DNA of 58,318 nucleotides. It comes from an uncultured virus (IMG/VR IMGVR_UViG_3300009155_005562). Taxonomy: Duplodnaviria; Heunggongvirae; Uroviricota; Caudoviricetes. Positions 1,598-58,318 of this stretch are shown here, in pieces (the first letter of the stretch is position 1; every line of letters starts with the position of its first letter). Location: IMG/VR virus record IMGVR_UViG_3300009155_005562; one strand, 5' to 3'. Both the position numbers and the translations under genes were made by a program. Under the pieces are notes generated by a model that searched no databases, had not been told where the DNA came from, and saw only the letters and a program-made list of their open reading frames with translations.

Positions 1598-2138
1598 CCT
1601 TCACCACCACTAACTTTACCCATAGTTCTTCTATAATATTATTGTGCTCTCTGAGATATTTTTCCACCTTATCTCTTGGCTCACCTTCGAACTCCTTGCG
1701 GTAAAGTTGCGATGGCATGTAATCCCAATCAACTATCTCAAAGTCAACATTAAAGTAATCCCCTAGACGGCTAGAAGCTGCTTGTTGTTCTTTGCACAGT
1801 TTATTGTGCTTTTTACTGAATAGCAGAAGCCCACCCACAGTAATAGGTCTTCTATGAGTAGGATCATCGTAGAAATAATCGTGCCTGTGATGTGGCACTC
1901 TTATATCAATTAATGCTCCGTGTTTGCAAATTCTATAGAGCTCTTTCAAGCAGTGAAAGTACCCTTCACCTAAATGCTCGAACACATGATGTGCTACTAC
2001 TACTTCAACAGAATTATCCTCAAAAGGAAACTTATCTGTTTCTAAATTAAAAAGATAATCTGGCTCTGCTAATGCATCGTAATCACAAGTAACAAAACCT
2101 TCAATTTTAGTACCACCTGAACCAATATTAATTTTCAT
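1590..2138 (-). CDS. SAM-dependent methyltransferase (type 11-like)
   Basis: KINIGSGG, FPFEDNSV, HVFEHL, ELYRICKHGA and DPTH motifs. Confidence 0.8.
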   Translation of the reverse strand: MKINIGSGGTKIEGFVTCDYDALAEPDYLFNLETDKFPFEDNSVEVVVAHHVFEHLGEGYFHCLKELYRICKHGALIDIRVPHHRHDYFYDDPTHRRPITVGGLLLFSKKHNKLCKEQQAASSRLGDYFNVDFEIVDWDYMPSQLYRKEFEGEPRDKVEKYLREHNNIIEELWVKLVVVKDG

Positions 2139-2158
2139 AACAATCTTTTACAGTTATA

Positions 2159-3487
2159 TTACGTTAAAGTACGTATCCCTAGCCCATGAAAATCGCCAGC
2201 ACTAATACTGCGCCACGATGTAGTCCCGCTTATAATAGATACTGGCGAGCACTTATTTACGGTTGTACCATCACCTAGTTGACCAGAATTATTACACCCC
2301 CAAGACCAAGCTGTTCCGTTTGTCCTGAGACCTAAACCCCAGTGCTCCAGACCTGTACTAACTTGACACCAATCAGTAAAACCACCAACGACTGATACTG
2401 GCGAGCACTTATTTACGGTTGTACCATCACCTAGTTGACCAGAATTATTACACCCCCATGCCCATGCAGTGCCATTTATACGGAGTCCCAAACTAACTCT
2501 GCTTGCACTGACCTGGCACCAGTCGGTGAAGCCACCTATGACAGATACTGGAGATGATTTGTTTAATGTTGTACCGTCACCTAATCCTCCGCTGTTATAT
2601 CCCCACGCCCAGGCTGTGCCGTTGGTTCTAACACCTAAGCTGCGAGCTCGGCCTGCGCTAACCTGACACCAATCTGTAAATCCACCTATGACTGATACTG
2701 GTGATGATTTAGATACGGCTGTACCATCACCTAACTGGCCGGAGGAATTTAAACCCCACGCCCATGCTGTCCCATTGGTTCTAACACCTAGGCTGTGAGA
2801 ATACCCAGCACTGACCTGGCACCAATTAGTGAAACCTCCAACAACTGACACTGGTGATGATTTATCTACTCTTGTTCCGTCACCTAGATAGCCCCAAAAG
2901 TTACATCCCCAAGCCCATGCAGTACCATTAGTTCTAACTCCAAGGCTATGACCGCAACCCGAGTCAACCTGGCACCAATCAGTAAACCCACCTATGACTG
3001 ATACTGGTGATGATTTATCTACGGTTGTTCCGTCACCTAGTTGGCCACAATTATTTAATCCCCACGCCCAGGCTGTACCGTTGGATCTAATACCTGAGCT
3101 TTGACAACCTCCAGCACTAACCTGACACCAGTCTAAAAAACCATTGACGACAGATACAGGTGATGATTTAGTTACTGATGTACCGTCGCCCAATTGACCG
3201 AACGCGTTTTGTCCCCAAGCATATGTATAATCATAGTCCCTTCTTAATACTCTGTTATCTAGACCGGTCCAACACCCTAATTGCGCAATAACTGGTACAC
3301 CTATACTGTTAACGAAGAATACTGTTCCTGGTATTATAGTATTACTAGATAAATCAGGCAAGCTATTTACGTTTGCAACAGTTACTGATCTGTTTGTTGT
3401 GTTTGTGTATACAGATGCAGCTAGTGTTAATAAACAAGCTGTAGAGCATGCATTAGTAAAATTATTTACGTCGTCTTGTAGAGCCAT
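2159..3487 (-). CDS. RCC1-repeat 7-bladed beta-propeller protein (paralog 6)
   Basis: Seven repeats of HSLGVRTNGTAWAWG-xxxx-GQLGDGT-xx-KSSPVSV. Confidence 0.9.
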   Translation of the reverse strand: MALQDDVNNFTNACSTACLLTLAASVYTNTTNRSVTVANVNSLPDLSSNTIIPGTVFFVNSIGVPVIAQLGCWTGLDNRVLRRDYDYTYAWGQNAFGQLGDGTSVTKSSPVSVVNGFLDWCQVSAGGCQSSGIRSNGTAWAWGLNNCGQLGDGTTVDKSSPVSVIGGFTDWCQVDSGCGHSLGVRTNGTAWAWGCNFWGYLGDGTRVDKSSPVSVVGGFTNWCQVSAGYSHSLGVRTNGTAWAWGLNSSGQLGDGTAVSKSSPVSVIGGFTDWCQVSAGRARSLGVRTNGTAWAWGYNSGGLGDGTTLNKSSPVSVIGGFTDWCQVSASRVSLGLRINGTAWAWGCNNSGQLGDGTTVNKCSPVSVVGGFTDWCQVSTGLEHWGLGLRTNGTAWSWGCNNSGQLGDGTTVNKCSPVSIISGTTSWRSISAGDFHGLGIRTLT

Positions 3488-4831
3488 TTAGCAACCTTTA
3501 ATAGATCCTGTAATACCTATAGTATCACAGCCTGAAGCGCAAACGAGAATCCAACTGGTAAAGCCCCCTATTATTGATACTGGTGATGGTTTTTTATCTG
3601 TTGTACCATCTCCTAATCGTCCGCAAGTATTTAATCCCCACGCCCATGCTGTACCATTGGTTCTAACACCTGCACTGTGAAAGTACCCGGCACTGACCTG
3701 ACACCAATCTGTAAAACCGCCTACAACTGATACTGGTGACGACCTGCTAGTATAACCACCTTCACCTAATTGTCCCTGATTGTTACGCCCCCAAGCCCAT
3801 GCAGTGCCATTGGTTCTAATACCTAAGCTATGGCCCTGGCCTGCACTAACTTGACACCAATCTGTAAAACCACCAATAACTGAAACAGGAGATGATTTAG
3901 CAACGGCTGTTCCGTCACCTAATTGACTAAAATAATTACATCCCCAGGCCCATGCTGTACCGTTAGTTCTGACACCTAGGCTGTGACCGCCGCTAGCGCT
4001 GCCGCTAACCTGACACCAATTAGTGAAACCTCCTACTACTGATACTGGTGATGATTTGTTTACAGTAGTACCGTCACCTAAACGGCCGTAACTGTTATAT
4101 CCCCAGGCCCAAGCAGTACCATTGGCTCTAACACCTAAGCTATGATTCGTACCTGCACTAACTTGACACCAATCAGTAAAACCACCAACGACTGATACGG
4201 GGGATGATTTGCTTACAGTTGTACCGTCACCTAAACGGCCGTAAATGTTTTGTCCCCAGGCCCACAATGTACCATTATTTCTAATAGCGATAGTATGAAA
4301 AGTCGTACTAACCTTGCACCACAGCAAACCTCCAACAACTGGTACTGGTGATGATTTAGTGACAGTAGTGCCGTCACCTAGTCGCCCGCTGTATCCTGTT
4401 CCCCACGCCCATGCTGTACCGTTAAATCTAAGACCCGTAGATGTTGTTGAGCCTGCACTTACTAAACACCAATCAGTAATCCCGCCAATAGCCGATACTG
4501 GCGATGATGTTGGTGTTGTAGTATTATCCCCTAGAATGCCTTGTGAGTCTTGCCCGGCGCCCCAGATACCTCCTCTTACCTCGCATCTTGATGAAAAATT
4601 ACAATTCCAGGCACCGTCTACAGCATGATAATATCTATTATCATTAGTCACAAAAATCATTCTACCATTATAGCAAGTGGCAGAAGGTAAAGATGCAAAG
4701 TTTGCCACGCTGCAAACTGGATTACTTAGTATAGTGAGCGCATTGGTGGTCTGACATGTCTGAAGTGCTGTTAGACCGCCTGCGTTGATAGCGCAACAAA
4801 TTTTGTCTATAAGATTTTGAGAGGTAATCAT
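3488..4831 (-). CDS. RCC1-repeat 7-bladed beta-propeller protein (paralog 5)
   Basis: Seven RCC1/BLIP-II repeats and an N-terminal ASLPSA...GRMIFV...W module. Confidence 0.9.
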   Translation of the reverse strand: MITSQNLIDKICCAINAGGLTALQTCQTTNALTILSNPVCSVANFASLPSATCYNGRMIFVTNDNRYYHAVDGAWNCNFSSRCEVRGGIWGAGQDSQGILGDNTTTPTSSPVSAIGGITDWCLVSAGSTTSTGLRFNGTAWAWGTGYSGRLGDGTTVTKSSPVPVVGGLLWCKVSTTFHTIAIRNNGTLWAWGQNIYGRLGDGTTVSKSSPVSVVGGFTDWCQVSAGTNHSLGVRANGTAWAWGYNSYGRLGDGTTVNKSSPVSVVGGFTNWCQVSGSASGGHSLGVRTNGTAWAWGCNYFSQLGDGTAVAKSSPVSVIGGFTDWCQVSAGQGHSLGIRTNGTAWAWGRNNQGQLGEGGYTSRSSPVSVVGGFTDWCQVSAGYFHSAGVRTNGTAWAWGLNTCGRLGDGTTDKKPSPVSIIGGFTSWILVCASGCDTIGITGSIKGC

Positions 4832-6192
4832 TAATATTTTAATCCTAGGCTGTGATATTGACCTGTACTAACCCGGTACCAATCAGTAAAACCGCCTGGT
4901 ACTGATACTGGTGATGATTTGTTTACGGTTGTTCCGTCGCCTAAACGGCCGAAGGCGCCACAGCCCCACGCCCATGCTGTACCATTAGTTCTAACACCTA
5001 GGCTGTGTTCAAAACCCGCGCTAACTTGACACCAATCTGTAAACCCACCTACAACTGACACTGGTGATGATTTATTTACGGCTGTACCATCCCCTAATTG
5101 ACCAGCAGCATTACATCCCCACGCCCATGCTGTACCGTTAGTTCTAACACCTAAGCTGTGATAGCTACCAGCACTAACCTGACACCAATCTGTAAACCCG
5201 CCTATGACCGATACTGGTGATGATTTATCCACGGTTGTTCCGTCGCCTAATTTACCATTACTGCCTGATCCCCACACCCATGCTGTACCATTGGTTCTAA
5301 CACCTAGGCTGAATCTAAGACCTGCACTAACCTGACACCAATCAGTAAACCCACCTACAACTGACACTGGTGATGATTTAGATACGGTTGTACCGTCACC
5401 TAAACGGCCTTCACTGCTACTTCCCCATGCCCATGCTGTACCGTTAGTTCTGACACCTAGGCTATGGCTCAGCGGTGATGCACTAACCTGACACCAATCT
5501 GTAAATCCGCCAACAACTGATACTGGTGATGATTTAGATACGGTTGTTCCATCTCCTAGTTGACCGGAAAGGCTCGTCCCCCACGCCCATGCTGTACCGT
5601 TAGTTCTGACACCTAGGCTGTGACAGCAGCCAGCACTAACTTGAAACCAATCTGTAAACCCACCTACAACTGACACTGGTGATGATTTATTTACTGTTGT
5701 TCCGTCGCCTAAACGGCCGATGTCGCCACAGCCCCATGCCCATGCAGTACCGTTAGTTCTAACACCTAAGCTATGATCACTTCCTGCACTAACCTGACAC
5801 CAATCTGAAAAACCACCAACAACTGAAACAGGAGATGATTTAGCAACGGTTGTTCCGTCACCTAGTTTCCCACCACTGCTTGATCCCCAGCTATATGTAT
5901 TACCATAGTTATAGTCATCTCTTATTAGACGTCCATCTAATGATATCCATTTTGTATTAGAACTAATAGCAAAAATACCAGTATCATTAATAAAAGTAAG
6001 GACTGAATCTGGAGAATTATAGAGTCCTAGATCAGGCAAGGACGCACTAGTTGAAACTACTGATATACTTTGAGTGTCAACAGCCTTTGCAGATAAAATT
6101 AGACCAAGTACTTCACTAGGCACAGTAGTGTTAGTAGTATTGCCTAGTGCTGCTGTAAGCTTGCTTTGAAGTGTTGTTTTATCTACTGGCAT
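4831..6192 (-). CDS. RCC1-repeat 7-bladed beta-propeller protein (paralog 4)
   Basis: Seven RCC1 repeats. Confidence 0.9.
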   Translation of the reverse strand: MPVDKTTLQSKLTAALGNTTNTTVPSEVLGLILSAKAVDTQSISVVSTSASLPDLGLYNSPDSVLTFINDTGIFAISSNTKWISLDGRLIRDDYNYGNTYSWGSSSGGKLGDGTTVAKSSPVSVVGGFSDWCQVSAGSDHSLGVRTNGTAWAWGCGDIGRLGDGTTVNKSSPVSVVGGFTDWFQVSAGCCHSLGVRTNGTAWAWGTSLSGQLGDGTTVSKSSPVSVVGGFTDWCQVSASPLSHSLGVRTNGTAWAWGSSSEGRLGDGTTVSKSSPVSVVGGFTDWCQVSAGLRFSLGVRTNGTAWVWGSGSNGKLGDGTTVDKSSPVSVIGGFTDWCQVSAGSYHSLGVRTNGTAWAWGCNAAGQLGDGTAVNKSSPVSVVGGFTDWCQVSAGFEHSLGVRTNGTAWAWGCGAFGRLGDGTTVNKSSPVSVPGGFTDWYRVSTGQYHSLGLKY

Positions 6193-6210
6193 TTTATTAT
6201 TCTACTATTC

Positions 6211-6840
6211 CTATGATTGCTCAATTATTTCTAAAGCCTGAAGTTCTTGCTTAGTATTAGCGGCATCAATTTGATCATTGATGTTTTTTTCCCAGTCAAA
6301 AGTAGATTGCACATGTGCTGATACTGCTGCTACTACTGATGACATGTCGCTTTTTGTAAGACTTAACCAGCCTTCAGTAAACTTCCAATTCACTGTATCA
6401 CCATTGCTCATTACTGATAGTTGATGTGAATAAATAGCGCGACCGCCGCGTGTTGTATCTAATGTAACTTCCTTGCTACCTATATTTAGTTTAACGCCAG
6501 CTACTTCTTTTTTCCAGCGCTCAGCAGCGGCTAAGTTAATGTAATTAATTTTAGCCGCATCTACTGGTGAATCCATCACTTCATAGTTAGCGATCGTTAC
6601 ATCCCCAGATACGTTCCAGAGAGGTCCGTAATAGTACTCGACCATAGGGTCGATTTCTGGTCTAACTTCCTCTACTAAGGTAATCTTTGCATCATTATTA
6701 ATTATAAGAGGGAGTTGTTCTGGGGGAAGTTTTGAAAGCTGAATATCTACCCCTTCCTTTTCTAGTGAGCCTTTAAAAATCCCACTATTCCAGTCCATAG
6801 GCCCTACTATTACTCTATTTTTATAAACTACTGCATACAT
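6211..6840 (-). CDS. DUF4376-like protein (tail-fibre-associated/assembly)
   Basis: C-terminal 'AERWKKEVAGV...VNWK...SAHVQSTFDWE...IDAA' pattern resembles DUF4376. It lies in the middle of the RCC1 array. Confidence 0.6.
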   Translation of the reverse strand: MYAVVYKNRVIVGPMDWNSGIFKGSLEKEGVDIQLSKLPPEQLPLIINNDAKITLVEEVRPEIDPMVEYYYGPLWNVSGDVTIANYEVMDSPVDAAKINYINLAAAERWKKEVAGVKLNIGSKEVTLDTTRGGRAIYSHQLSVMSNGDTVNWKFTEGWLSLTKSDMSSVVAAVSAHVQSTFDWEKNINDQIDAANTKQELQALEIIEQS

Positions 6841-50440: not shown

Positions 50441-50517
50441 GTATTTGCTCCTTATTAGCGTTGTATTAAAGTATAACGTCGTATCCACTTACTCATGACG
50501 ATATAGTATATATTATA

Positions 50518-51102
50518 TTACTTTTGTGAAAATTTATCCAGCACAATTTTTTTCATCTTATCTCTATCAAACTCTAAAAACTGCCTGTATTTCTTGCACT
50601 TTAAATTTACTTGTGGCCAAACTACTGTTTCCTCTATACGTCTACTCCACTTCCTAGAAAAACTTACCAGCTCATCTAGTATAACAAACGTCTCTATTGT
50701 TATTTCGTTCCGAAGAAGAAGCTTTAATAGTAATGGATGCTGACCGTCTACTACTAAAAAATTAGAATCGAATTCTGACTCTAATTTATCCAAGTCATTA
50801 CTAAAGGTATATGAAAGAGATTCTTTTACCTTTAAGAACTGCTTGTATAGCCTTTCAGATTCTGTGTTGTGTACCAAATCCCCGATCCAGTTGTCGCCGC
50901 TGTATACAAAATTGGATACGAGAAACTCAACGGGATCTTTTCGCTTTGAAAGCTTGTGGAAAAAGTACTTGTCAGATCTTTTTTCAAATGTTGTACGGGA
51001 GGCTTTAGTTCGCCCGCCATATTTAAAGTAGTCATATGTTTTACTCGTAAAATGGTTCTTTAAAGCAAGATATAATTTATAAGCTTCAAACGCATCCATC
51101 AA
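50518..51102 (-). CDS. Helicase loader gp59
   Basis: Y..YLALK.HF....YDYFKY.G, F.KR.D..FF.KL. Confidence 0.9.
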   Translation of the reverse strand: MMDAFEAYKLYLALKNHFTSKTYDYFKYGGRTKASRTTFEKRSDKYFFHKLSKRKDPVEFLVSNFVYSGDNWIGDLVHNTESERLYKQFLKVKESLSYTFSNDLDKLESEFDSNFLVVDGQHPLLLKLLLRNEITIETFVILDELVSFSRKWSRRIEETVVWPQVNLKCKKYRQFLEFDRDKMKKIVLDKFSQK

Positions 51103-51655
51103 AATTTAGGTTCTTAAAGAAAAGGCTTTGCTGTCTAATGTAGCGTTCCCGCATAGTAGACGCTTCTCGCACTTGTTGTAAAGTAAAGGGCATAGGCTTA
51201 AACCCATTTTTTTCCATCACATTTAACCAGTAGCCTGCATGCTGACAATTAACGTGATGGTGACCAGGTTGACCTGGTAGTGCATGAGTCATGATAACGT
51301 ATTTGCAAGATTTAAAAGTCTCAATGAAGTTAGGCATGTATTCTTCATCAACATGTTCGACAAACTCTACTGTCCAGGCTAAATCATACTTCTTCTCTGG
51401 AATAAAAGGACCCTTAGAATAATCATGGATAACTACATTGTCCTTAATGCTCTCTGGTCGTTCTACTGTAAAGTCACCGTCCACTCCTAGTACATCTAGA
51501 CCTTTATTCTTGCAGAGTTCAACTACACCGCCAGGTCCGCATCCAATATCTAAAACTGACTTAACTTCCAGATTCTCAATTAAATAATTAATTGCGCCTT
51601 CATCAACGTGCGTTTCATTTTCATGGCCGCCTAGGTGCCCGGGTAAAGTAGTCAT
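51086..51655 (-). CDS. SAM-dependent methyltransferase
   Basis: SVLDIGCGPG, GVDG, DLAW.VEFVEHV, PGQ.G.HHVNCQ...YW. Confidence 0.85.
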   Translation of the reverse strand: MTTLPGHLGGHENETHVDEGAINYLIENLEVKSVLDIGCGPGGVVELCKNKGLDVLGVDGDFTVERPESIKDNVVIHDYSKGPFIPEKKYDLAWTVEFVEHVDEEYMPNFIETFKSCKYVIMTHALPGQPGHHHVNCQHAGYWLNVMEKNGFKPMPFTLQQVREASTMRERYIRQQSLFFKNLNFDGCV

Positions 51656-51891
51656 ATAGGTAGTTTCCTTGTTTTAGGTAAATAATTTAAATCTTCCGCA
51701 TCATCTTGAATTCGCGCTTTCATTTTAGTGCTGCCTTTAATTAAAGAAGCCGCAGTCTCTATTTCTATATTATTTTGCTCGCAGTAAAGCACCACCGCAT
51801 CCAGATACGAAATTCTTTTTTCTAGAGATAGCTTATCTATTTCTCCCATGAACTCTGTAGGAGTTTTTATTCCAAAAATATCTTCTGTCAT
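51652..51891 (-). CDS. Late transcription coactivator gp33
   Basis: F..EI.......YLDAVV.YCE.N.IEIE.AA.LI....K..I..DA..LN.LP; next to gp59. Confidence 0.88.
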   Translation of the reverse strand: MTEDIFGIKTPTEFMGEIDKLSLEKRISYLDAVVLYCEQNNIEIETAASLIKGSTKMKARIQDDAEDLNYLPKTRKLPI

Positions 51892-52439
51892 TTATAAAAA
51901 ATATGTCTCCCTATTTTTGCTACTCTCTGTTTATTCCAGTTAGGGTGAACATAGTCAGCGTGATAATATAAAGCACCCTTCACCTTTTCTAACATAAACC
52001 CTTCCATAAGTATCTTTCTAGCCGCTTTTTCTGATTCTAGGTAATTATCATAGTAAATAGGCATATTGGTTTGCTTACAATACCACGAAAATTGACAGAC
52101 TGGTTTTTTATTATTCTTGTAAGTTTTTTGATACACAACCTGACAAATATCGTTAGGGAATGTATCGCTCCTAGCACGATTTACAGTTACCTGTGCTACT
52201 GCAAGTTTACCTTCAAAAGGTTCAGTTGCTGCTTCATAATAAATGTTTCTGGTAAGACATTCAAGCTGTCTTGGTGTAGCTAGTGTATCCTTTGTAACAG
52301 CTACTTCTGGTACCGGCTTAGTAATTTTACTTGTGTATAAAGTTGTAAGATAGTGGCCAAAAACAAAGAACGAATTGACAAACATAACACCTAGAGTAAA
52401 ATACAGAAGACCTTTGGTAATAGATTGGATATTATCCAT
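51888..52439 (-). CDS. Cell wall hydrolase (SleB / Hydrolase_2) with N-terminal membrane anchor
   Basis: CL..NIYYEA, AVAQVT.NR, IC.VVYQ, CQFSWYC, YYHADYV.P.W, IGRHIFY. Confidence 0.9.
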   Translation of the reverse strand: MDNIQSITKGLLYFTLGVMFVNSFFVFGHYLTTLYTSKITKPVPEVAVTKDTLATPRQLECLTRNIYYEAATEPFEGKLAVAQVTVNRARSDTFPNDICQVVYQKTYKNNKKPVCQFSWYCKQTNMPIYYDNYLESEKAARKILMEGFMLEKVKGALYYHADYVHPNWNKQRVAKIGRHIFYK

Positions 52440-52490
52440 GCTATCTCCTAAATTTTTCTGATTATAGATGTAAAGGAATATTAAAGCCAG

Positions 52491-53123
52491 TTATACTGAC
52501 TTGATGGTACTCTCAGCCTGACCATAGCCAAAAAACTTAGCTTTCCAGTCATTACGAGCCATTCCTTCGAGAGGTAGCCAACGGTGCTTCTCTTTAAGTA
52601 GTACCTTAGCTGCGTGGTTCCAGTCAGTGGATATAACAAATTCTTCAAACTGACCTTTAAGGTTGATAAAGTGTTCATATGAGTTTGAATCTTGTTCTAT
52701 ATGAACTATTTCATACACTCTATCATCATCATGATTTAAATAATCTAAACTAAAATCTAACCCCCATTTCTTCTTACAATTAATAAGATAGTTAAGTTGT
52801 GGGAGTCTTTTTTGATACTTGTGTAGTTGTATTGCAGCTTCATCAGTAAAATCACATCTATGTAGTATCATAGTGTGATCTATAAAAAATGGATCTTCCT
52901 TGCTTATATCAAACCAGGGTTCTTGCCAGCAGGTATGGTATAAGCACCCGTTACCAATCTTATTCTGATATCCTGCAGCGCAGTAGTAAGCTTGCTCTAA
53001 AGGGGTAAGCTCAAAGCCGTCTTTATCAAAGTATTTAACACTCTCTTTGCTTAAAAGACCGGCATTTACTGTTTCGCTGCAGGTAGGGTTACTATCTACA
53101 TGAACTTTAATTACAGTAAACAA
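52491..53123 (-). CDS. Hypothetical protein
   Basis: 210-aa ORF packed in the operon; no family recognised. Confidence 0.65.
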   Translation of the reverse strand: MFTVIKVHVDSNPTCSETVNAGLLSKESVKYFDKDGFELTPLEQAYYCAAGYQNKIGNGCLYHTCWQEPWFDISKEDPFFIDHTMILHRCDFTDEAAIQLHKYQKRLPQLNYLINCKKKWGLDFSLDYLNHDDDRVYEIVHIEQDSNSYEHFINLKGQFEEFVISTDWNHAAKVLLKEKHRWLPLEGMARNDWKAKFFGYGQAESTIKSV

Positions 53124-53591
53124 TTATGCTAAAAATCCTGGCTTGTAAACGGTCTTGCCGCCTTCTTTAAGTGCTGTAAGGCATTGCTTACGTTGTGGGC
53201 CGTCTTTCTTGAGTGAAACATGCACCCACCCTGAGTCTGGAATACCTGGTGTATAAAATTCGAGAATAAGCTGGTCAAAGGGTAAGTTATCTCTAATGTA
53301 AGCAGCTAAATCAGCATTTGGAATGCCGGGGACTTCAATATCACACGCTTCACCGTTGCAATGCTGGCTTGTTGCAGCGCCACCTACAGCTTCATTAAGC
53401 TTAGCACCTCTATACCCTGAGTTTACCTTTACGGGCTTCCCGTAATGCTCTCGAACAGGTTGCACAACCTTTTCTACTAAGTTCTTTAAGTTTTCCATAT
53501 GGACACCCTGAGGGGTATTATCAATACCCTTCTTTGTTGCTGTGTCGCTCTTGGTAAATTCTTCTAAGGTAAAGTTTTTAGATAATTGCAT
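53124..53591 (-). CDS. Peptidase M15A (Zn D-Ala-D-Ala carboxypeptidase-type endolysin)
   Basis: LS.NFTL.E...S, NSGYR...LN..VGG...SQH..GEA.D, FDQLILE, WVHVS. Confidence 0.9.
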   Translation of the reverse strand: MQLSKNFTLEEFTKSDTATKKGIDNTPQGVHMENLKNLVEKVVQPVREHYGKPVKVNSGYRGAKLNEAVGGAATSQHCNGEACDIEVPGIPNADLAAYIRDNLPFDQLILEFYTPGIPDSGWVHVSLKKDGPQRKQCLTALKEGGKTVYKPGFLA

Positions 53592-54210
53592 GTCGTCTAT
53601 CCTGTAAGTAAAATTCTTTTAAAGAAAAAACTATAAAGTCAATGTATAGTATAAGAAGCTTGAGCATGTGTATTATATTTAGTAATCTTGAAAACTTAAA
53701 ATATCTGTATAGTTTACGTGCAATATAGCCGTGTTCTATTTCTTCTTGAGTATGCCAAAGCCAGAAGTTTTTGATTTCAGGGTCAGTATTTGTAAATTTT
53801 TCCTTTAGTAAAAGCTTACATACTCTAACTATCATAGCTTCAAAGCAAACTGCATACGATAGCTTATCACTATTTTTTAAGATAAGAACGCGCCCGGCTA
53901 GCCTTTTTGCTTTATTTTGAATAGAGCTTATATCGTAGTTTAATGATAATTGTTCATTAAATGCTTTATGATTATAACTATGCCAGCTTTCTTGTCCGAA
54001 TAAAATATCTATTTCAGCTAATAATGTTTTGTCTTTAACTTTCTTTTTGTAAAAACTTAGAAGTCTGCAGAAGATGTATTCATTTTGCTCAAATAATAAT
54101 GAATTAGCATTCCAAAAAAAAGTTTTAAATTTATTATTATCAAACCAGTATTTTGTTAATTTAAAGCTAAACTTTCTAGGTCTTATTTCCATTTTGTTAA
54201 TCCAAGACAT
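53578..54210 (-). CDS. Ferritin-like diiron 'predicted metal-dependent hydrolase' family protein
   Basis: I.PR...F, W...N...T.F.NA.S.LF...E..F, GQE..H...H..FN, E, WH..EE.EH carboxylate/His pattern. Confidence 0.75.
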   Translation of the reverse strand: MSWINKMEIRPRKFSFKLTKYWFDNNKFKTFFWNANSLLFEQNEYIFCRLLSFYKKKVKDKTLLAEIDILFGQESWHSYNHKAFNEQLSLNYDISSIQNKAKRLAGRVLILKNSDKLSYAVCFEAMIVRVCKLLLKEKFTNTDPEIKNFWLWHTQEEIEHGYIARKLYRYFKFSRLLNIIHMLKLLILYIDFIVFSLKEFYLQDRRHAII

Positions 54211-55361
54211 ACATTAGTACCACCGAATGCAAAGGAATTATTTAGTACAGTATTAATAGGGTTAAACACAGGTATGGTAGGTAAGAATATATTACTACTT
54301 ATATCTGCATCTAACCCATTAATAAAGTTATTTTGTATAATTCTATTATTTTTTATAACAAAAATACAAGCTAGAGTTTCAAAGGTACCAGCTGCACCCA
54401 ATAGATGGCCAGTGAGGGATTTAGTTGAAGAGATAGGTATATTTACTACTTCTTTGCCGAATACTTCTTCTATAGCTTGAAGTTCTATTAAGTCACCTAC
54501 CGGGGTCCCTGTACCATGACTATTAATATAAGATATATCTTTAGTATTTAAATCTTTTAAGCATTCTTTTATTACTCGTGCTTGGGAAGACCTGCAGGGC
54601 TTGGTAAATGTTTCTGTCCCTGTAGATAAGCCATACCCCGTAATCTCACAGTATATTTTGGCTTTACGGGATAAAGCGTATTCTAAATCTTCTAAGATTA
54701 ATGATACTGATCCTTCTGATATGGCTGTCCCTTTTCTATCTGCTGAATATGGTCTAACCGCATTAAAACTATATTCCTTATCTTCATTAATTGCGCCTAT
54801 ACCGCGCCACCAGCTGGCGTTAAGTTTGGTATTTAAGCATTCCGAGCCAACTGCTACGGCGTTTTTTAAAGCACCACTCTTTATTCTTAAATATGCCTCT
54901 CCTAATGCTACGGCGGACGATGAGCACGCTGTGGTATATGAGATGCACGGCCCGGTGATTTTTTCTCTCAAAGAAATATAGCTTGCACCCTGATTGGGCA
55001 TCGCTTTAATAATGGAGATAGGGTTAATTTTCTTACCGTTAGAAATATTACTATAGCATTCTTCCACTGTAAGGGCTCCGCCAAACCCTACTCCATAAAA
55101 TATACCTTCAGGTACTATACCTGAATCATCACGGGCCCTCTCATAGGAAATCCAGGAGAGTTTAGTTACTTTATCCGTAAGATTTGTATCTGATGATGAG
55201 AACATAGAGTCAATATTTTCATCTACCGAGCCGCTCACGGTATTATGGCTATCGTTCCATTTTAGACCTGAAATACTATTGTATAGCCTGTGTTCTATTG
55301 TATCTAAATCACCACCTATAGGTGTTATCGCGCCGGCGCCTGTTATAACTACTCTTCTCAT
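54183..55361 (-). CDS. fabF: Beta-ketoacyl-ACP synthase (FabF/KAS II type)
   Basis: RRVVITG.G...PIG. Intact Cys-His-His triad (TACSSS, INSHGTGT, STKSLTGHLLGAAG). NSFAFGGTN. Confidence 0.92.
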   Translation of the reverse strand: MRRVVITGAGAITPIGGDLDTIEHRLYNSISGLKWNDSHNTVSGSVDENIDSMFSSSDTNLTDKVTKLSWISYERARDDSGIVPEGIFYGVGFGGALTVEECYSNISNGKKINPISIIKAMPNQGASYISLREKITGPCISYTTACSSSAVALGEAYLRIKSGALKNAVAVGSECLNTKLNASWWRGIGAINEDKEYSFNAVRPYSADRKGTAISEGSVSLILEDLEYALSRKAKIYCEITGYGLSTGTETFTKPCRSSQARVIKECLKDLNTKDISYINSHGTGTPVGDLIELQAIEEVFGKEVVNIPISSTKSLTGHLLGAAGTFETLACIFVIKNNRIIQNNFINGLDADISSNIFLPTIPVFNPINTVLNNSFAFGGTNVCLGLTKWK

Positions 55362-56089
55362 ATCTTTTCTAATACTTTACCAAAATAGAATATCGGATCG
55401 AATTCCCACCAGCGTTTTCTTTGATTAGGCTCGTTAGGGAAGGCATGGTGATTATTATGCCAGTCACCACCAAATATACCTAAAAATAAATTATTGTGAG
55501 AGTTATTTAAGGTGTCGTAGTTTCTATAGTTAAACGGTGTTTTTTTATGTGAAAAATAATTAAATACATCAATACAGATATAATTAAACATTACACTAAG
55601 AATTAAGTATTTAAAGAAAACGGTGTTAATTAACAAGGATAAAAATATAGTGCCATATGTAAGCTCATAGTAGTATGTGTTAATGAATGTTTCTATTCTT
55701 GATTCATTCTTGTCAATCTTACCTATAAGCTTAGAGTCAACGATATGCATATCTATAAGAGTAAAGAACCCCTGGTGTGGTCCGTGCAGATCTAGTTCGG
55801 TATCTGTATATCTGTGATGTAATCTATGCATTGCAATGTAGGTTCTTGAAGAACTAAACATACTTAAAAGTGTAAAGCAACAGAAAATATCTCTAAGATA
55901 CCAGGATATTTTAAAAGCGCGGTGGCTAAAAATTCTATGAAGTACTAATTGATTAAAGACGATCTGTATGTAAACTAGAAATGTTAACAAATAGTAATTA
56001 ATGGGGCTGTCATTTATAACAGAGTCAATTAAAAAATAAAGCCCGGTAAGAAAAATTCCTAGAAATAAAATATATCTTTTAATCTTCAT
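55358..56089 (-). CDS. Membrane fatty-acid desaturase (delta-9-like)
   Basis: His boxes HRIFSH, HRLHH, HNNHH; WWEFD; hydrophobic segments. Confidence 0.9.
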   Translation of the reverse strand: MKIKRYILFLGIFLTGLYFLIDSVINDSPINYYLLTFLVYIQIVFNQLVLHRIFSHRAFKISWYLRDIFCCFTLLSMFSSSRTYIAMHRLHHRYTDTELDLHGPHQGFFTLIDMHIVDSKLIGKIDKNESRIETFINTYYYELTYGTIFLSLLINTVFFKYLILSVMFNYICIDVFNYFSHKKTPFNYRNYDTLNNSHNNLFLGIFGGDWHNNHHAFPNEPNQRKRWWEFDPIFYFGKVLEKI

Positions 56090-56852
56090 TCTTTATAGAC
56101 TTTATAATAAATGTAGGTATATCTAGTTCCCACCATTTTACTTTTTGAGTATAAGACGTCGGATTAGCGTGGTGATTGTTATGCCATTCGCCTAGTAAAT
56201 ACCCTGCTACTAAATCGTTGTTTGATTTATCTTTAGTTTGAAAATTTCTATACGAAAGAAAATTACTAGTATGATTCACAACATTAACCCACCCTGTTCC
56301 AAGTAAAATTCCACAAATTCCTACGTTATAGGAAAGCGCAACTATTGGATCTATAGCCAATAACGCAATATAAAAAGTGACAAGTATTAGTAAGTAGTAG
56401 CTATGAGTAAAGCTTATCCAGTAGTCTCTAAGACCTCTCGCGTAAAGCGGTGATATTTTTTCATCACTTGAATTAAACATGAAGAAAAAAGTCTTTACGG
56501 GTTTTTTAGGTTGATGTGGATCATCAGGGGTATCTGAGTAGCGATGATGGGTTTTGTGAATTATAGCGTATCCAAGCGGTGAGCCGAACGCCACTAGTGT
56601 AGAAATGAACGTAATAAAGATATGCCAGGGCTTCGATAGTTTGTATGAGCTGTGCGAGAAGTATCTATGAAGCCCTGCGTTGTGTCCTACATGTAGCATT
56701 ACAAGGTACCATAGAAAACTTAAACTTATAAACCATGCATTTGCCCCATACGTGCTAAATGCGACAACTGCGAGCACGAATTGCATTGTAATAATATATT
56801 TTTGTAAGTGATCGCGAGACTTAAAAATAAAATCTAAAGGCCATTTATACAC
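56079..56852 (-). CDS. Membrane fatty-acid desaturase (delta-9-like)
   Basis: His boxes HRYFSH, HKTHH, HNNHH; SDT..DPH; WWELD. Confidence 0.9.
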   Translation of the reverse strand: MYKWPLDFIFKSRDHLQKYIITMQFVLAVVAFSTYGANAWFISLSFLWYLVMLHVGHNAGLHRYFSHSSYKLSKPWHIFITFISTLVAFGSPLGYAIIHKTHHRYSDTPDDPHQPKKPVKTFFFMFNSSDEKISPLYARGLRDYWISFTHSYYLLILVTFYIALLAIDPIVALSYNVGICGILLGTGWVNVVNHTSNFLSYRNFQTKDKSNNDLVAGYLLGEWHNNHHANPTSYTQKVKWWELDIPTFIIKSIKNED

Positions 56853-57582
56853 TTTTAATTTTCCTAATAAAAAAATCGATTATATCAAATTCCCACCATT
56901 TTACTTTTTGATTCTGAATATGTGGGTTGGTATGGTGGTTATTGTGCCAATCACCTAAAATGTAGCCGTATATAAAATCGTTATAAGCCGGGCCGTCGAA
57001 GTTCTTATATGAAAATATTGTCTTTTTGTGAGAAAAGACTGCGGTCCAGATAAATGCAAAATAACACATAATGACCGAGTAGTGGTACGAGATCCATAGA
57101 ACAGGACTTATTAAAAACAGTACTATACTATTAACTATCAAAAATGGATGATAGTATTTATGTGTAAAAACTACAAAACGATCACCTAAGAGCTTACTTC
57201 TAAAATACCTTATATGATCATAATTAGTAATGTTTAAAAAAGCTTTCAAGGGGCTATCAAAGTGATACGGATCTTTTCCCGTATCACTAGTTAGATGATG
57301 ATTGCGATGAAAGGTAGCCCAGCCAAATGCCGAGCCATACCCAACTGCATTTGCTAGATAAACTATGACATAATGCACTGGTCTGCTAAGAGAAAAGTAT
57401 TCGTGTGATAGATACCTATGCTGCCCTATATTATGACCAAACCAGAATAAAATAAAAAATAAAAATAATGATAAAATAAGTATTTTAATACTGGGAACTA
57501 TGAAAAATGTTCCCACTAAAGCAATAATAATATTTGCTAAGCTAACAAACCGATTAGTAAATGGATGTGATTTTAAAATCAC
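56845..57582 (-). CDS. Membrane fatty-acid desaturase (delta-9-like)
   Basis: His boxes HRYLSH, HRNHH, HNNHH; WWEFD. Confidence 0.9.
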   Translation of the reverse strand: MILKSHPFTNRFVSLANIIIALVGTFFIVPSIKILILSLFLFFILFWFGHNIGQHRYLSHEYFSLSRPVHYVIVYLANAVGYGSAFGWATFHRNHHLTSDTGKDPYHFDSPLKAFLNITNYDHIRYFRSKLLGDRFVVFTHKYYHPFLIVNSIVLFLISPVLWISYHYSVIMCYFAFIWTAVFSHKKTIFSYKNFDGPAYNDFIYGYILGDWHNNHHTNPHIQNQKVKWWEFDIIDFFIRKIKSV

Positions 57583-57585
57583 TTC

Positions 57586-57873
57586 TTAATCCATCTTATA
57601 ATTAACTGATATATTAAGTCTATTTCCCAAAGCTGTGACAAAAGCATCTAAAATATCTCCTATTGTCTCTGGCACCGGGCTGCCTTCAGGTAATTCAATG
57701 CCCGTCTTGTCTTCCATACCAAAAATAAACTGAAGATATTCCAACGAGTCTAGCTTTGGAGCCATCTCCTTAATAGTAGATATAGGTGTATTGGCAGGCA
57801 TGCCGCTAATATCGATATCATAATCCTTCTTCATTGTTACTATAATTAGATTATAAATCTCGTCTTTTGTCAT
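57586..57873 (-). CDS. Acyl carrier protein
   Basis: Probable start MTKDEIY at 57873 after GAGG. LDSL phosphopantetheine site followed by ...MEDKTGIELP...TIGDI. Acidic. Confidence 0.8.
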   Translation of the reverse strand: MTKDEIYNLIIVTMKKDYDIDISGMPANTPISTIKEMAPKLDSLEYLQFIFGMEDKTGIELPEGSPVPETIGDILDAFVTALGNRLNISVNYKMD

Positions 57874-57897
57874 ATTTTTAGCCTCATAGAAATAAAT

Positions 57898-58185
57898 GAT
57901 AGTTGATTCTGTTGCCAAGTTCAACTATCAAGACTCCGGTCTTAGCTGTTAGGCAGCAAGAGCCATGTTGTAATCGCTATCGTTTGCGTTTACTAGTTCT
58001 GCTTCATTTACGTCGATCGCCTGACGTGCTGTCCATATCTGTACTCATTGCCCTGTCGAAACCTTGACATCCCCATCATAAGCGTATTACTTATTGGACT
58101 CTGATTAAGCCTATAGGCACTCATACCAGGCAATACGCTTATGGTGGAGATGGCGAGAATCGAACTCGCGTCCAGAACACCTTTC
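57898..58185 (-). ncRNA. ssrA: Circularly permuted (two-piece) tmRNA, tag ANDSDYNMALAA*
   Basis: The acceptor piece GGACGCGAGTTCGATTCTCGCCATCTCCACCA (CCA ends at 58142) precedes the coding piece starting GGGGATGTCAAGGTTTCGAC (58074). Tag ORF 57987-57949. Terminal hairpin with GGCAACAGAA at 57898-57929. 5' boundary approximate. Confidence 0.9.
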
Positions 58186-58188
58186 CTT

Positions 58189-58317
58189 CTACTTCATACA
58201 GCAATTCTTTTGATAAGCTTCTGGTTGTACAGATAAAAGCTCATCGTTCATAATATATTTAGTCTGACAAATACCACATTTAAAATCATTCTGCATGATA
58301 CGATTTTTAAGTTCCTC
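58189..58317 (-). CDS. 3' end of a hypothetical Cys-containing protein (partial)
   Basis: Open frame EELKNRIMQNDFKCGICQTKYIMNDELLSVQPEAYQKNCCMK* runs off the window end; contains CxxC. Confidence 0.5.
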   Translation of the reverse strand, partial: EELKNRIMQNDFKCGICQTKYIMNDELLSVQPEAYQKNCCMK

Positions 58318-58318
58318 G

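What the first reader, a model, noticed from the sequence alone, without database searches (positions are those of the whole stretch)
53578..57873. Phage-encoded mini biosynthetic cluster: ACP, three desaturases, ketosynthase and a diiron protein
Seen: six abutting or overlapping co-oriented genes with intact catalytic motifs (ACP DSL serine, three His boxes in each desaturase, KS Cys-His-His, EE.EH diiron motif). Known: single desaturases occur in cyanophages, whereas ACP plus multiple desaturases is the logic of bacterial polyyne and terminal-alkyne pathways (caryoynencin cay, jamABC). Inference: the phage makes a dedicated polyunsaturated or acetylenic acyl product, or remodels host lipids, with the ferritin-like protein as tailoring or release enzyme. 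No acyl-AMP ligase, reductase or PPTase is in the window, so host FAS or other phage genes would be needed.
Basis: partly seen in the sequence, partly recalled or inferred. Interest (0 to 1): 0.85.

Follow-up and report, generated by a model that had tools for sequence, protein, structure and literature searches.

The report
Phage carrier-protein-linked fatty-acid desaturase operon
A T4-like freshwater phage carries a tight operon of an acyl carrier protein, three membrane fatty-acid desaturases, a chain-extending ketosynthase and a two-metal oxidase, and its carrier–desaturase–ketosynthase core recurs in many uncultured phages, which suggests these viruses make their own unsaturated lipids.

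Summary
Six co-oriented minus-strand genes at 53578-57873 abut or overlap, and all catalytic motifs are intact. They encode an ACP, three SCD1/delta-9-family membrane desaturases, a Cys-His-His ketosynthase and a PF10118 protein with a diiron-carboxylate site.

The host record is a 145.7-kb T4-like myovirus. A separate contig (L001) and contigs from other freshwater runs carry the same junctions, so the cluster is not a chimera.

The exact six-gene unit is seen only in this phage type. The ACP-desaturase-KS core is found in 9 of 16 dereplicated phage locus groups. Four groups also have an AcpS-like PPTase beside the ACP. Other phages carry tandem arrays of 3-6 desaturases.

The phage desaturases form their own clade. 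It is separate from cellular polyyne/alkyne-type cassettes retrieved here, and the best cellular match is 27% identical. Des1-, Des2- and Des3-type paralogues each have orthologues in other metagenomes.

The record holds no acyl-AMP ligase, PF00975 thioesterase, rubredoxin, ferredoxin or PPTase, so it is not a member of the polyyne cassette.

Best reading: an ACP-templated desaturation and elongation module whose product is still unknown. I found no description of it in the literature searched. It is a new variant of a known kind, interest about 0.7.

The parts
57586..57873 (-). Acyl carrier protein (95 aa) with the phosphopantetheine-site Asp-Ser-Leu motif (S43)
   Evidence: ORF. Weak NCBIfam ACP hits, 4.9e-4. 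D42-S43 invariant in 14 of 14 aligned ACPs. Profile hits solved ACPs at 2.7e-18. Homologue L007:7723-8001 passes Pfam PP-binding. The N-terminus MT(K/R)DE matches the homologues.
56845..57582 (-). Desaturase 1 (245 aa, GTG start), a Des1-type paralogue
   Evidence: No Pfam hit; NCBIfam DesA-family 8.4e-7. All His-box residues conserved. Orthologues P0317-P0321 are 45-49% identical. They form a clade with 100/100 support that is sister to the Des2 type.
56079..56852 (-). Desaturase 2 (257 aa, GTG start), closest of the three to the ACP/KS-linked desaturase of other phages
   Evidence: PF00487 7.9e-12. 51% identical to the L002 desaturase. Orthologues are 63-78% identical. The desaturase profile hits stearoyl-CoA desaturase structures 4zyo/4ymk at 1e-21.
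55358..56089 (-). Desaturase 3 (243 aa), the most divergent paralogue
   Evidence: PF00487 1.5e-13. 26% identical to Des1. One orthologue, P0197, at 40%. It pairs with P0197 at 100/99, sister to the core clade.
54183..55361 (-). Beta-ketoacyl-ACP synthase of the elongating (FabF/FabB-like) type, 392 aa
   Evidence: Both Pfam KS domains. TIGR03150 FabF scores 277 bits, below the 494-bit cut-off. Best solved relatives are FabB 7pps (2.3e-55) and FabF 3o04, with Cys-His-His and Lys aligned. These residues are invariant in 8 of 8 phage KS.
53578..54210 (-). PF10118 protein ('predicted metal-dependent hydrolase' by name), a diiron-carboxylate-type helical bundle; likely true start at 54192
   Evidence: PF10118 1.9e-34. 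E44/E74xxH77/H81/E124/H153/E157xxH160 invariant in 53 of 53 homologues. AlphaFold2 pLDDT 95.6. Best structural matches are CmlI Z 14.2, RNR R2 14.1 and AurF 14.0. Start inferred from the alignment.
57897..58251 (-). Permuted (two-piece type) tmRNA gene 23 nt upstream of the ACP start; a neighbour, not shown to belong to the module
   Evidence: Rfam beta_tmRNA 108 bits (cut-off 84) and tmRNA_permuted 141 bits. ARAGORN calls a permuted tmRNA with tag ANDSDYNMALAA.
53124..53591 (-). M15 peptidase (endolysin-like), overlapping the PF10118 gene by 14 nt; same transcription direction, probably the same operon
   Evidence: PF08291 5.2e-25; overlap.

Best explanation
The phage encodes a carrier-protein-templated fatty-acyl desaturation and elongation module.

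Shown:
- It has a dedicated ACP, a condensing enzyme with a complete Cys-His-His/Lys active site, and three old, diverged paralogues of the SCD1/delta-9 family of membrane di-iron desaturases.
- It also has a soluble protein with an invariant diiron-carboxylate-type ligand set.
- All six genes sit in one translationally coupled operon.
- The ACP-desaturase-KS core is inherited at the same genomic position (upstream of gp59) in related T4-like phages. Some of those add their own AcpS-type PPTase.

Inferred:
- The acyl chain rides on the phage ACP.
- Because there is no acyl-AMP ligase, the KS takes a host acyl chain and condenses it with malonyl-ACP. This loads or extends the chain on the phage ACP.
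- The three desaturases add unsaturations at different positions or chain lengths while the chain is ACP-bound.
- The PF10118 protein carries out a further O2-dependent step on the aliphatic chain.
- The host supplies pantetheinylation, malonyl transfer, the reductive steps and the electron donor.
- The unsaturated acyl chains then enter host envelope lipids during infection.

The last step, the fate of the product, is the least certain.
For: Operon structure: a 3-nt gap and overlaps of 4-28 nt.

Synteny:
- Of 16 dereplicated phage locus groups with core-type desaturases, ACP is adjacent in 11, KS in 10 and both in 8.
- A ninth group (L006) has PPTase-ACP-Des-KS elsewhere in its 100%-complete 171.7-kb record.
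- ACP-desaturase pairs also occur without a KS (L050, L016/L068, L014, L052). This ties the ACP to the desaturase rather than to the KS.
- An AcpS-like PPTase lies beside the ACP in 4 groups: L002, L050, L016/L068 and L227.

Comparison with cellular loci: among the cellular-type desaturase loci fetched, an adjacent ACP was found only in two polyyne-like cassettes. These are L122 (AMP-ligase + 4 desaturases + ACP) and L059. Published work shows such cassettes desaturate ACP-bound chains (PMC9828172, passages read).

Conservation: catalytic residues are invariant. Des1-, Des2- and Des3-type lineages are each conserved in other metagenomes, which argues for distinct roles rather than redundant copies.

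PF10118 context: bacterial PF10118 genes lie next to FMO-like monooxygenases in 5 of 16 loci examined. This is compatible with aliphatic substrates.
Against: - There is no biochemical evidence at all.
- The closest characterised relatives by sequence are acyl-CoA desaturases (SCD1). Homologues are auto-annotated as stearoyl-CoA or acyl-lipid delta-9 desaturases. The one phage desaturase family tested experimentally is reported as DesC-like, homologous to acyl-lipid desaturases (PMC5776448).
- Some phage desaturases stand without ACP or KS within 7-8 kb (the L004 group, L020; Pelagibacter phage Mosig).
- The arrays in L049 and L051 have a KS but no detectable ACP.
- The record has no PPTase, FabD, reductase or electron carrier, so much must come from the host.
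- A KS product is a beta-ketoacyl chain, which needs host reductases that accept the phage ACP.
- The PF10118 gene accompanies the module only in this phage type.
Confidence: 0.45

Rival explanations
1. Uncoupled lipid genes. The three desaturases are acyl-lipid or acyl-CoA desaturases that act directly on host membrane lipids, as the cyanophage DesC-like enzymes do, to tune fluidity. The ACP and KS only boost or redirect host type II fatty-acid synthesis. The genes would then sit together because of a shared theme, not a shared substrate.
For: The desaturase profile matches stearoyl-CoA desaturase structures at 1e-21. Homologues are labelled delta-9 or acyl-lipid desaturases by their sources. 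Cyanophage vFADs are DesC-like delta-9 enzymes, tested in yeast (PMC5776448). Solo desaturases exist in phages (L004 group, L020, Mosig).
Against: ACP lies immediately beside the desaturase in 11 of 16 phage groups, including four with no adjacent KS. In cellular-type loci, ACP adjacency was seen only in thiotemplated polyyne-like cassettes. Three to six diverged paralogues in tandem are hard to explain by fluidity tuning alone.
Confidence: 0.25
2. Specialised metabolite. This uses the same ACP-templated chemistry, but the desaturase trio works as in bacterial polyyne pathways and makes a highly unsaturated or acetylenic fatty acid. The diiron protein tailors or releases it. The product would be a toxin, signal or protectant, not a membrane lipid.
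For: A dedicated ACP plus exactly three desaturases mirrors the cay/pgn triad, and an iron protein (ferritin CayK) boosts polyyne yield (PMC9828172). Other phages carry 5-6 tandem desaturases (L049, L051). The record also encodes a ferritin. Structural neighbours of the PF10118 fold include UndA bound to lauric acid (Z 10.7) and aldehyde-deformylating oxygenases (Z 9.8-10.8).
Against: The record has no acyl-AMP ligase, PF00975 thioesterase or rubredoxin, and published work found ligase/ACP and thioesterase essential. The phage desaturases are split from the clade holding the polyyne-like L122 and PKS-linked L120/L123/L062 desaturases with 99/96 support. They are also shorter (243-257 aa, against 299-334 aa for the full-length ones). 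No export or self-resistance gene was seen. The structural Z-scores fall in the range common for helical bundles.
Confidence: 0.2
3. Envelope glycolipid or other acylation. The ACP-bound unsaturated chain is handed to an acyltransferase that modifies lipid A/LPS, ornithine-type lipids or a protein, changing the cell surface (for example to block superinfection).
For: In other phages these desaturases sit beside Asp/Arg-hydroxylase (LpxO-family) proteins (L014, L019, Mosig) and hexapeptide acyltransferase-like proteins (L049, L019). The record carries heptose/sugar-nucleotide, glycosyltransferase and sulfotransferase genes.
Against: None of these partners lies in or next to the window's operon. 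The associations are few and were not tested statistically.
Confidence: 0.07

Closest known systems
Bacterial polyyne cassette (cay/pgn: acyl-AMP ligase, ACP, desaturase triad, thioesterase, rubredoxin)
   Same: A dedicated ACP and three membrane desaturases in one operon, with an accessory iron protein. The published chemistry is desaturation of an ACP-bound chain (PMC9828172, PMC8406139).
   Different: Ligase, PF00975 thioesterase and rubredoxin are absent from the whole record. A KS is present instead. The desaturases lie in a separate, phage-only clade and are about 60-90 aa shorter. The carrier is a lytic-type T4-like phage.
jamABC-type terminal-alkyne cassette
   Same: A membrane desaturase paired with its own ACP.
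   Different: There is no JamA-type ligase. The phage enzymes do not group with the PKS-linked cyanobacterial desaturases fetched here (L120, L123, L062). Authentic JamB was not available for comparison.
Cyanophage vFAD (DesC-like delta-9 desaturases; PMC5776448)
   Same: A phage-borne delta-9-family membrane desaturase with three His boxes.
   Different: The passages read describe only the desaturase gene and mention neither ACP nor KS (0 occurrences of 'acyl carrier' and 'ketoacyl'). It is described as homologous to acyl-lipid desaturases and comes from cyanomyophages. Here there are three paralogues welded to an ACP and a KS. The sequence relationship was not tested because no vFAD sequence was on hand.
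Type II fatty-acid synthase FabF/FabB with AcpP
   Same: A KS with Cys-His-His/Lys and a GFGG-type C-terminus, and a small acidic ACP with the DSL motif.
   Different: The KS scores 277 bits against the 494-bit FabF equivalog cut-off, and the ACP about 20 bits against 66-70. Both are divergent phage lineages, not host-like copies.
Diiron oxidases/oxygenases of the ferritin-like and haem-oxygenase-like folds (CmlI/AurF, RNR R2, R2lox, UndA, ADO)
   Same: The same helical-bundle fold class (Z 10.7-14.2) and an E / ExxH / E / HxxxExxH ligand pattern. From memory, this pattern matches the three-His AurF-type site.
   Different: No significant sequence match to any solved structure. PF10118 has no characterised member that I could find (listing only).

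Membership tests
Bacterial polyyne biosynthetic cassette (cay/pgn) | Fatty acyl-AMP ligase (JamA/CayA/PgnD type) | tested here: not met
   PF00501 searched in six frames over the whole 145.7-kb record: 0 matches at E <= 0.1. The record is estimated 85% complete.
Bacterial polyyne biosynthetic cassette (cay/pgn) | Dedicated ACP | tested here: met
   ACP at 57586-57873 with an invariant DS motif.
Bacterial polyyne biosynthetic cassette (cay/pgn) | Three co-clustered membrane desaturases | tested here: met
   Des1-3, all His boxes intact.
Bacterial polyyne biosynthetic cassette (cay/pgn) | Desaturases belong to the JamB/CayB-related clade | tested here: inconclusive
   In a 70-row ML tree the phage enzymes are split with 99/96 support from the clade holding a polyyne-like cassette (L122) and PKS-linked desaturases (L120, L123, L062).
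Bacterial polyyne biosynthetic cassette (cay/pgn) | Thioesterase | tested here: not met
   PF00975: 0 matches in the record. No thioesterase family appeared in the Pfam scans of 126 ORFs outside the window or of the 11 ORFs at 50.5-57.9 kb. Other hydrolase families and window ORFs at 1-50.5 kb were not scanned by Pfam.
Bacterial polyyne biosynthetic cassette (cay/pgn) | Rubredoxin or another dedicated electron carrier | tested here: not met
   PF00301 and PF00111: 0 matches each.
Membrane fatty-acid desaturase, SCD1/delta-9 type (PF00487) | Three histidine boxes (HxxxxH, HxxHH, HxxHH) plus the extra conserved His | tested here: met
   H55/H60, H92/H95/H96, H185 and H213/H216/H217 are invariant in 8 of 8 sequences. 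They align to SCD1 motifs.
Membrane fatty-acid desaturase, SCD1/delta-9 type (PF00487) | Pfam gathering score reached | tested here: met
   Des2 scores 45.9 bits and Des3 51.6 bits against the 29.7-bit cut-off. Des1 alone has no Pfam hit, but its orthologues P0318-P0321 carry PF00487.
Membrane fatty-acid desaturase, SCD1/delta-9 type (PF00487) | Regiospecificity (delta-9) and substrate head group | not testable with these tools
   This needs enzymology. The family names on homologues are automatic annotations.
Cyanophage vFAD (DesC-like) | Groups with vFAD-I/II or picocyanobacterial DesC in a phylogeny | not tested
   No vFAD or DesC reference sequence was retrieved. tblastn of Des2 against 50,697 phage records matched only 3 records, at about 26% identity.
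Acyl carrier protein (PF00550) | Asp-Ser-Leu phosphopantetheine site; ACP profile match | tested here: met
   DS invariant in 14 of 14. Profile against solved ACPs gives 2.7e-18. The window protein alone misses the Pfam threshold, but its homologue L007 passes at 26.4 bits against 20.8.
FabF/FabB beta-ketoacyl-ACP synthase | Cys-His-His triad and both KS domains | tested here: met
FabF/FabB beta-ketoacyl-ACP synthase | NCBIfam equivalog cut-off (FabF 493.75 bits; FabB 630 bits) | tested here: not met
   277.2 and 216.4 bits. It is an elongating-type KS but not a FabF or FabB equivalog.
PF10118 (Metal_hydrol) | Pfam gathering score | tested here: met
   119.9 bits against the 33.2-bit cut-off.
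Diiron-carboxylate oxidase/oxygenase superfamily | Four-helix-bundle core with E...ExxH...E...ExxH metal ligands | tested here: met
   The ligand pattern is invariant in 53 of 53 homologues. The model has pLDDT 95.6. Top structural matches are CmlI, RNR R2 and AurF at Z 14, which is at the upper edge of what helical bundles reach by chance. Metal binding itself was not tested.

The most novel reading that the evidence does not exclude
This may be the first viral thiotemplated lipid natural-product pathway. A phage would use its own ACP, primed by a ketosynthase instead of an acyl-AMP ligase, together with a co-evolved trio of minimal membrane desaturases and a diiron oxidase. In relatives the desaturase set reaches six. 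The product would be a polyunsaturated or acetylenic lipid made in the infected cell, acting as a toxin, signal or envelope component rather than as a simple fluidity adjustment.
Probability: 0.2. Interest if true: 0.9.

Novelty: new variant of a known kind. Interest (0 to 1): 0.7.

Why it matters
Known phage lipid genes are single desaturases thought to adjust host membranes. This is a multi-enzyme, carrier-protein-based lipid module. It is inherited within T4-like freshwater phages and has diversified into arrays of up to six desaturases.

If the chemistry is ACP-templated, phages run their own branch of fatty-acid metabolism in infected cells. That bears on virocell physiology and on lipid biomarkers in lakes.

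The module also offers very small (about 245 aa) membrane desaturases with possibly new regiospecificities. It gives the uncharacterised PF10118 family a first genomic context that points to a testable substrate.

Tried and rejected
- DNA similarity of the cluster to 50,697 phage records matched only the M15 peptidase edge.
- PHROGs gave only phrog_35201, of unknown function, for the desaturases.
- The PF10118 protein against solved-structure sequences gave nothing. Its profile gave only BesC at E 0.47, which I did not use as evidence. Foldseek against the PDB gave no match at E <= 0.001. VIA-align was used instead.
- Single-protein pattern scans of IMG/VR with Des3 and Des1 found only the near-identical L001 contig or nothing.
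- The promoter and terminator scan showed no excess over shuffles: 19 against 23.9 +/- 4.8, and 4 against 3.1 +/- 1.8.
- No RNA holder was listed among the sequencing runs.
- In the read layout, run X5 gave no cover over the PF10118/M15 region. One divergent X4 contig showed a 53038->57949 joint with only 38 letters on its shorter side. Neither was used as evidence.
It was redone through handles.
- Complex prediction was not run. An enzyme with its carrier is a poor case for that test, and a pass would not tell acyl-ACP from acyl-lipid chemistry.
- Chimeric assembly was rejected. L001, an independent 8.1-kb contig, carries Des3-KS-PF10118-M15-orf210-SleB-methyltransferase-gp59 at 99-100% protein identity. 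Contigs from other runs bridge Des3-Des2-Des1, and one reaches the ACP 3' end.
- Recent capture from a bacterium was rejected. The best cellular desaturase match was 27% identical in a pattern-limited scan of one genome per species. The cluster GC of 0.338 is close to the window's 0.379.

Full report
**What is there**

The window is the minus strand of positions 76024-134341 of a 145.7-kb IMG/VR virus record, estimated 85% complete. The record is a T4-like myovirus. It encodes gp23, UvsW, UvsX, UvsY, gp41, gp43, gp44, gp45, RegA, RNase H and terminase, and gp59 lies at window 50518-51102.

At 53578-57873 six ORFs lie head to tail on the minus strand. The order is ACP (57586-57873), Des1 (56845-57582), Des2 (56079-56852), Des3 (55358-56089), KS (54183-55361) and a PF10118 protein (53578-54210). 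The junctions are a 3-nt gap followed by overlaps of 8, 11, 4 and 28 nt.

The PF10118 protein probably starts at its seventh codon (54192). All four of its closest homologues start there, which makes the last overlap 10 nt. An M15 peptidase gene overlaps the PF10118 gene by 14 nt, so the operon probably runs on into cell-wall hydrolase genes.

Twenty-three nucleotides upstream of the ACP start lies a permuted tmRNA gene. This rules out the longer TTG start for the ACP. The ATG at 57873 gives the N-terminus shared with homologues.

- Des2 and Des3 pass Pfam FA_desaturase.
- Des1 does not, but it aligns with them at 37% and 26% identity. All eight His-box histidines plus a ninth conserved His are invariant across eight phage desaturases. 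Des1 orthologues carry PF00487.
- A profile of these desaturases matches the two stearoyl-CoA desaturase structures at about 1e-21, with the three His motifs aligned. Hydropathy shows the expected hydrophobic blocks.
- The KS has both KS domains. Its best solved relatives are FabB and FabF (E about 1e-55), with Cys, His, His and Lys aligned. These four residues are invariant in eight phage KS. It scores well below NCBI's FabF and FabB equivalog cut-offs, so it is a divergent elongating-type KS.
- The ACP alone has only weak NCBIfam hits. Its homologue in L007 passes Pfam PP-binding. Asp-Ser is invariant in 14 aligned ACPs. That profile hits solved ACPs at 2.7e-18; note that it also contains more canonical ACPs from other loci.
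- The PF10118 protein is called a 'predicted metal-dependent hydrolase', but 53 of 53 homologues keep E44, E74xxH77, H81, E124, H153 and E157xxH160. The AlphaFold2 model is confident, with pLDDT 95.6.
- The model's best structural neighbours are di-metal oxidases: CmlI Z 14.2, RNR R2 14.1, AurF 14.0, R2lox 12.7 and methane monooxygenase 11.9. Further down are aldehyde-deformylating oxygenases and UndA at about 10.7, and stearoyl-ACP desaturase at 8.9.
- These Z values are at the top of what helical bundles reach by chance. The diiron call therefore rests on fold and ligand pattern together. No sequence-level match to a solved structure exists.

**Is the assembly real?**

An independent 8.1-kb viral contig (L001) carries Des3, KS, PF10118, M15, orf210, the SleB-like hydrolase, the methyltransferase and gp59 at 99-100% protein identity.

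The cluster's words occur in runs from 5 studies, most labelled freshwater metagenome; one run may be the source sample. Four of these runs were laid on 50500-58318:
- X2 and X3 cover 30 of 30 bins.
- A 2,028-bp X3 contig bridges KS start-Des3-Des2-Des1.
- A 2,832-bp X5 contig covers Des3-Des2-Des1-ACP end at about 96% identity.
- One X3 contig has an in-frame 27-nt deletion in the ACP's C-terminal tail.

The cluster is not a chimera.

**Is it conserved as a unit?**

Not as six genes. Desaturase-based scans of IMG/VR (21 loci) and of JGI metagenome contigs (best 80 of 511 relatives) were screened with HMMs for all parts and dereplicated at 95% desaturase identity.

Sixteen phage locus groups carry a core-type short desaturase:
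- ACP is adjacent in 11 groups.
- KS is adjacent in 10 groups.
- Both are adjacent in 8 groups, always in the order ACP-Des-KS.
- A ninth group (L006) looked like a lone desaturase, but its complete 171.7-kb record has PPTase-ACP-Des-KS about 36 kb away.

An AcpS-like PPTase sits directly beside the ACP in four groups: L002, L050, L016/L068 and L227. Its Pfam ACPS scores are below the cut-off (21.8 and 17.1 against 25 bits).

In L002 and L227 the module lies upstream of gp59, among the same flanking genes as in the window's genome. This points to inheritance within a T4-like lineage.

Three desaturases plus PF10118 occur only in the window's own contig and L001. PF10118 homologues in 14 other viral contigs stand without any lipid gene.

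Other phages enlarged the desaturase set on their own. L049 has a KS plus six desaturases and L051 a KS plus five. L016 has three desaturases with PPTase and ACP, and L014 has three with an ACP but no PPTase detected.

**Phylogeny**

A 70-row maximum-likelihood tree (LG+G4; ultrafast bootstrap/SH-aLRT) was built after dropping the most distant cellular rows present in the first 71-row tree.
- It splits 60 phage-type desaturases from 10 cellular ones with 99/96 support.
- The cellular rows include a Dolichospermum cassette of AMP-ligase, four desaturases and ACP (L122), and desaturases next to PKS genes (L120, L123, L062).
- A core clade (31 rows, 100/98) holds the ACP/KS-linked desaturases of other phages, together with a Des2-type group (5 rows, 100/100) and a Des1-type group (6 rows, 100/100). 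The last two are sisters (94/89).
- Des3 pairs with one metagenomic protein (100/99), just outside the core (95/98).

Orthologue identities are 63-78% for Des2, 45-49% for Des1 and 40% for Des3. A Des2-type and a Des1-type protein both list a longest contig of 10,641 bp. They probably share a contig, but I could not fetch it.

The three genes are therefore old, separately conserved paralogues, not recent redundant copies.

In one genome per species of 185,579 species, the best cellular match was 27% identical.

**What is missing**

Six-frame searches of the whole record found none of the following:
- PPTase
- AMP-binding ligase
- PF00975 thioesterase
- rubredoxin
- 2Fe-2S ferredoxin

A Pfam scan of 126 ORFs outside the window showed no FabD, reductase or dehydratase. 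Window ORFs at 1-50.5 kb were not Pfam-scanned. The record does encode a ferritin.

**Interpretation**

The strongest clue is gene order. These desaturases sit immediately next to a dedicated ACP, with or without a KS, and some phages add a PPTase. Among cellular-type loci fetched here, ACP adjacency appears only in polyyne-like cassettes (L122, L059). [quoted passage not shown]

I therefore favour an ACP-templated module (0.45). In it the KS replaces the ligase as the way to put a chain on the phage ACP, the three paralogues add different unsaturations, and the diiron protein performs a further oxidative step. The host would provide everything else. The fate of the product is open; host envelope lipids seem most economical.

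The main rival (0.25) is that the desaturases act on membrane lipids, as described for the cyanophage enzymes (PMC5776448, passages read), and only share a theme with the ACP and KS.

A true polyyne-like specialised product (0.2) is not excluded. It lacks three cassette genes and phylogenetic support.

A surface-lipid acylation role (0.07) is suggested only by neighbours in other phages.

Bacterial PF10118 genes occur in 8 of 81 sampled genomes of one class (drawn around a Pseudomonadota genome; the class name was not reported), often in several copies. They lie next to FMO-like monooxygenases in 5 of 16 loci. This fits an aliphatic substrate but proves nothing.

**Novelty**

Full-text searches found the cyanophage single-desaturase work and a preprint noting ACP modules in freshwater jumbophages (passages read). 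The term sets were phage + desaturase + ACP + auxiliary metabolic, bacteriophage + desaturase + ketoacyl + ACP + metagenome, and phage-encoded + ACP. None described an ACP-desaturase-KS module. PF10118 appears in two papers on lanthipeptide proteases (search listing only).

The parts are known kinds. The combination, its viral lineage and its expansion to arrays of up to six desaturases are new as far as these searches reach.

Noticed in passing
window 57897-58251 (-): A phage-encoded permuted (two-piece type) tmRNA with tag ANDSDYNMALAA. It matches Rfam's betaproteobacterial family above its cut-off, which may hint at a betaproteobacterial host. Weakly similar unannotated stretches occur in an Alcaligenes phage and a Synechococcus phage.
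   Followed up: partly
L049:4969-11378 and L051:920-5804: Phage-like metagenome contigs carrying a short (354 aa) Cys-His-His KS followed by six or five tandem diverged desaturases. Several are orthologous between the two contigs. No ACP was detected in either locus.
   Followed up: partly
L002:1391-1732, L016:8711-9010, L050:1-219, L227:3601-3930: Small AcpS-like phosphopantetheinyl transferases encoded directly beside the phage ACPs. The window's phage has none.
   Followed up: partly
L014:8980-9723, L019:8155-8802; Pelagibacter phage Mosig (L205:4357-5633): Asp/Arg-hydroxylase (LpxO-family) proteins recur next to phage desaturases, including in a cultured pelagiphage. Hexapeptide acyltransferase-like proteins sit near them in L049 and L019.
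   Followed up: no
L122 (Dolichospermum sp. contig), 392-6374: A cyanobacterial cassette of AMP-ligase, four tandem desaturases and an ACP. It looks like an uncharacterised polyyne-type cluster.
   Followed up: no
L025-L038; L206-L225: PF10118 proteins are recurrent on their own in 14 viral contigs. In bacteria they are multi-copy and lie next to FMO-like (Baeyer-Villiger-type) monooxygenases in 5 of 16 loci examined.
   Followed up: partly
G000 outside the window (L200, L202, L203, L204): The phage also carries a 7-deazaguanine/queuosine gene set (FolE, QueD, QueE-like, QueC, QueF-like). It has a ferritin, peptide deformylase, Hsp20, heptose/sugar-nucleotide and glycosyltransferase genes, and a sulfotransferase with an APS-kinase-like gene.
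   Followed up: no
window 57606-57632: One freshwater run (X3) carries an in-frame 27-nt deletion in the ACP's C-terminal tail. This tail is an extension that the other phage ACPs lack.
   Followed up: no
window 51888-53591: Two different cell-wall hydrolases, an M15 peptidase and a SleB-like Hydrolase_2, flank an unknown 210-aa ORF directly downstream of the lipid operon. A SleB-like gene also lies near the module in L002, L007 and L012.
   Followed up: no
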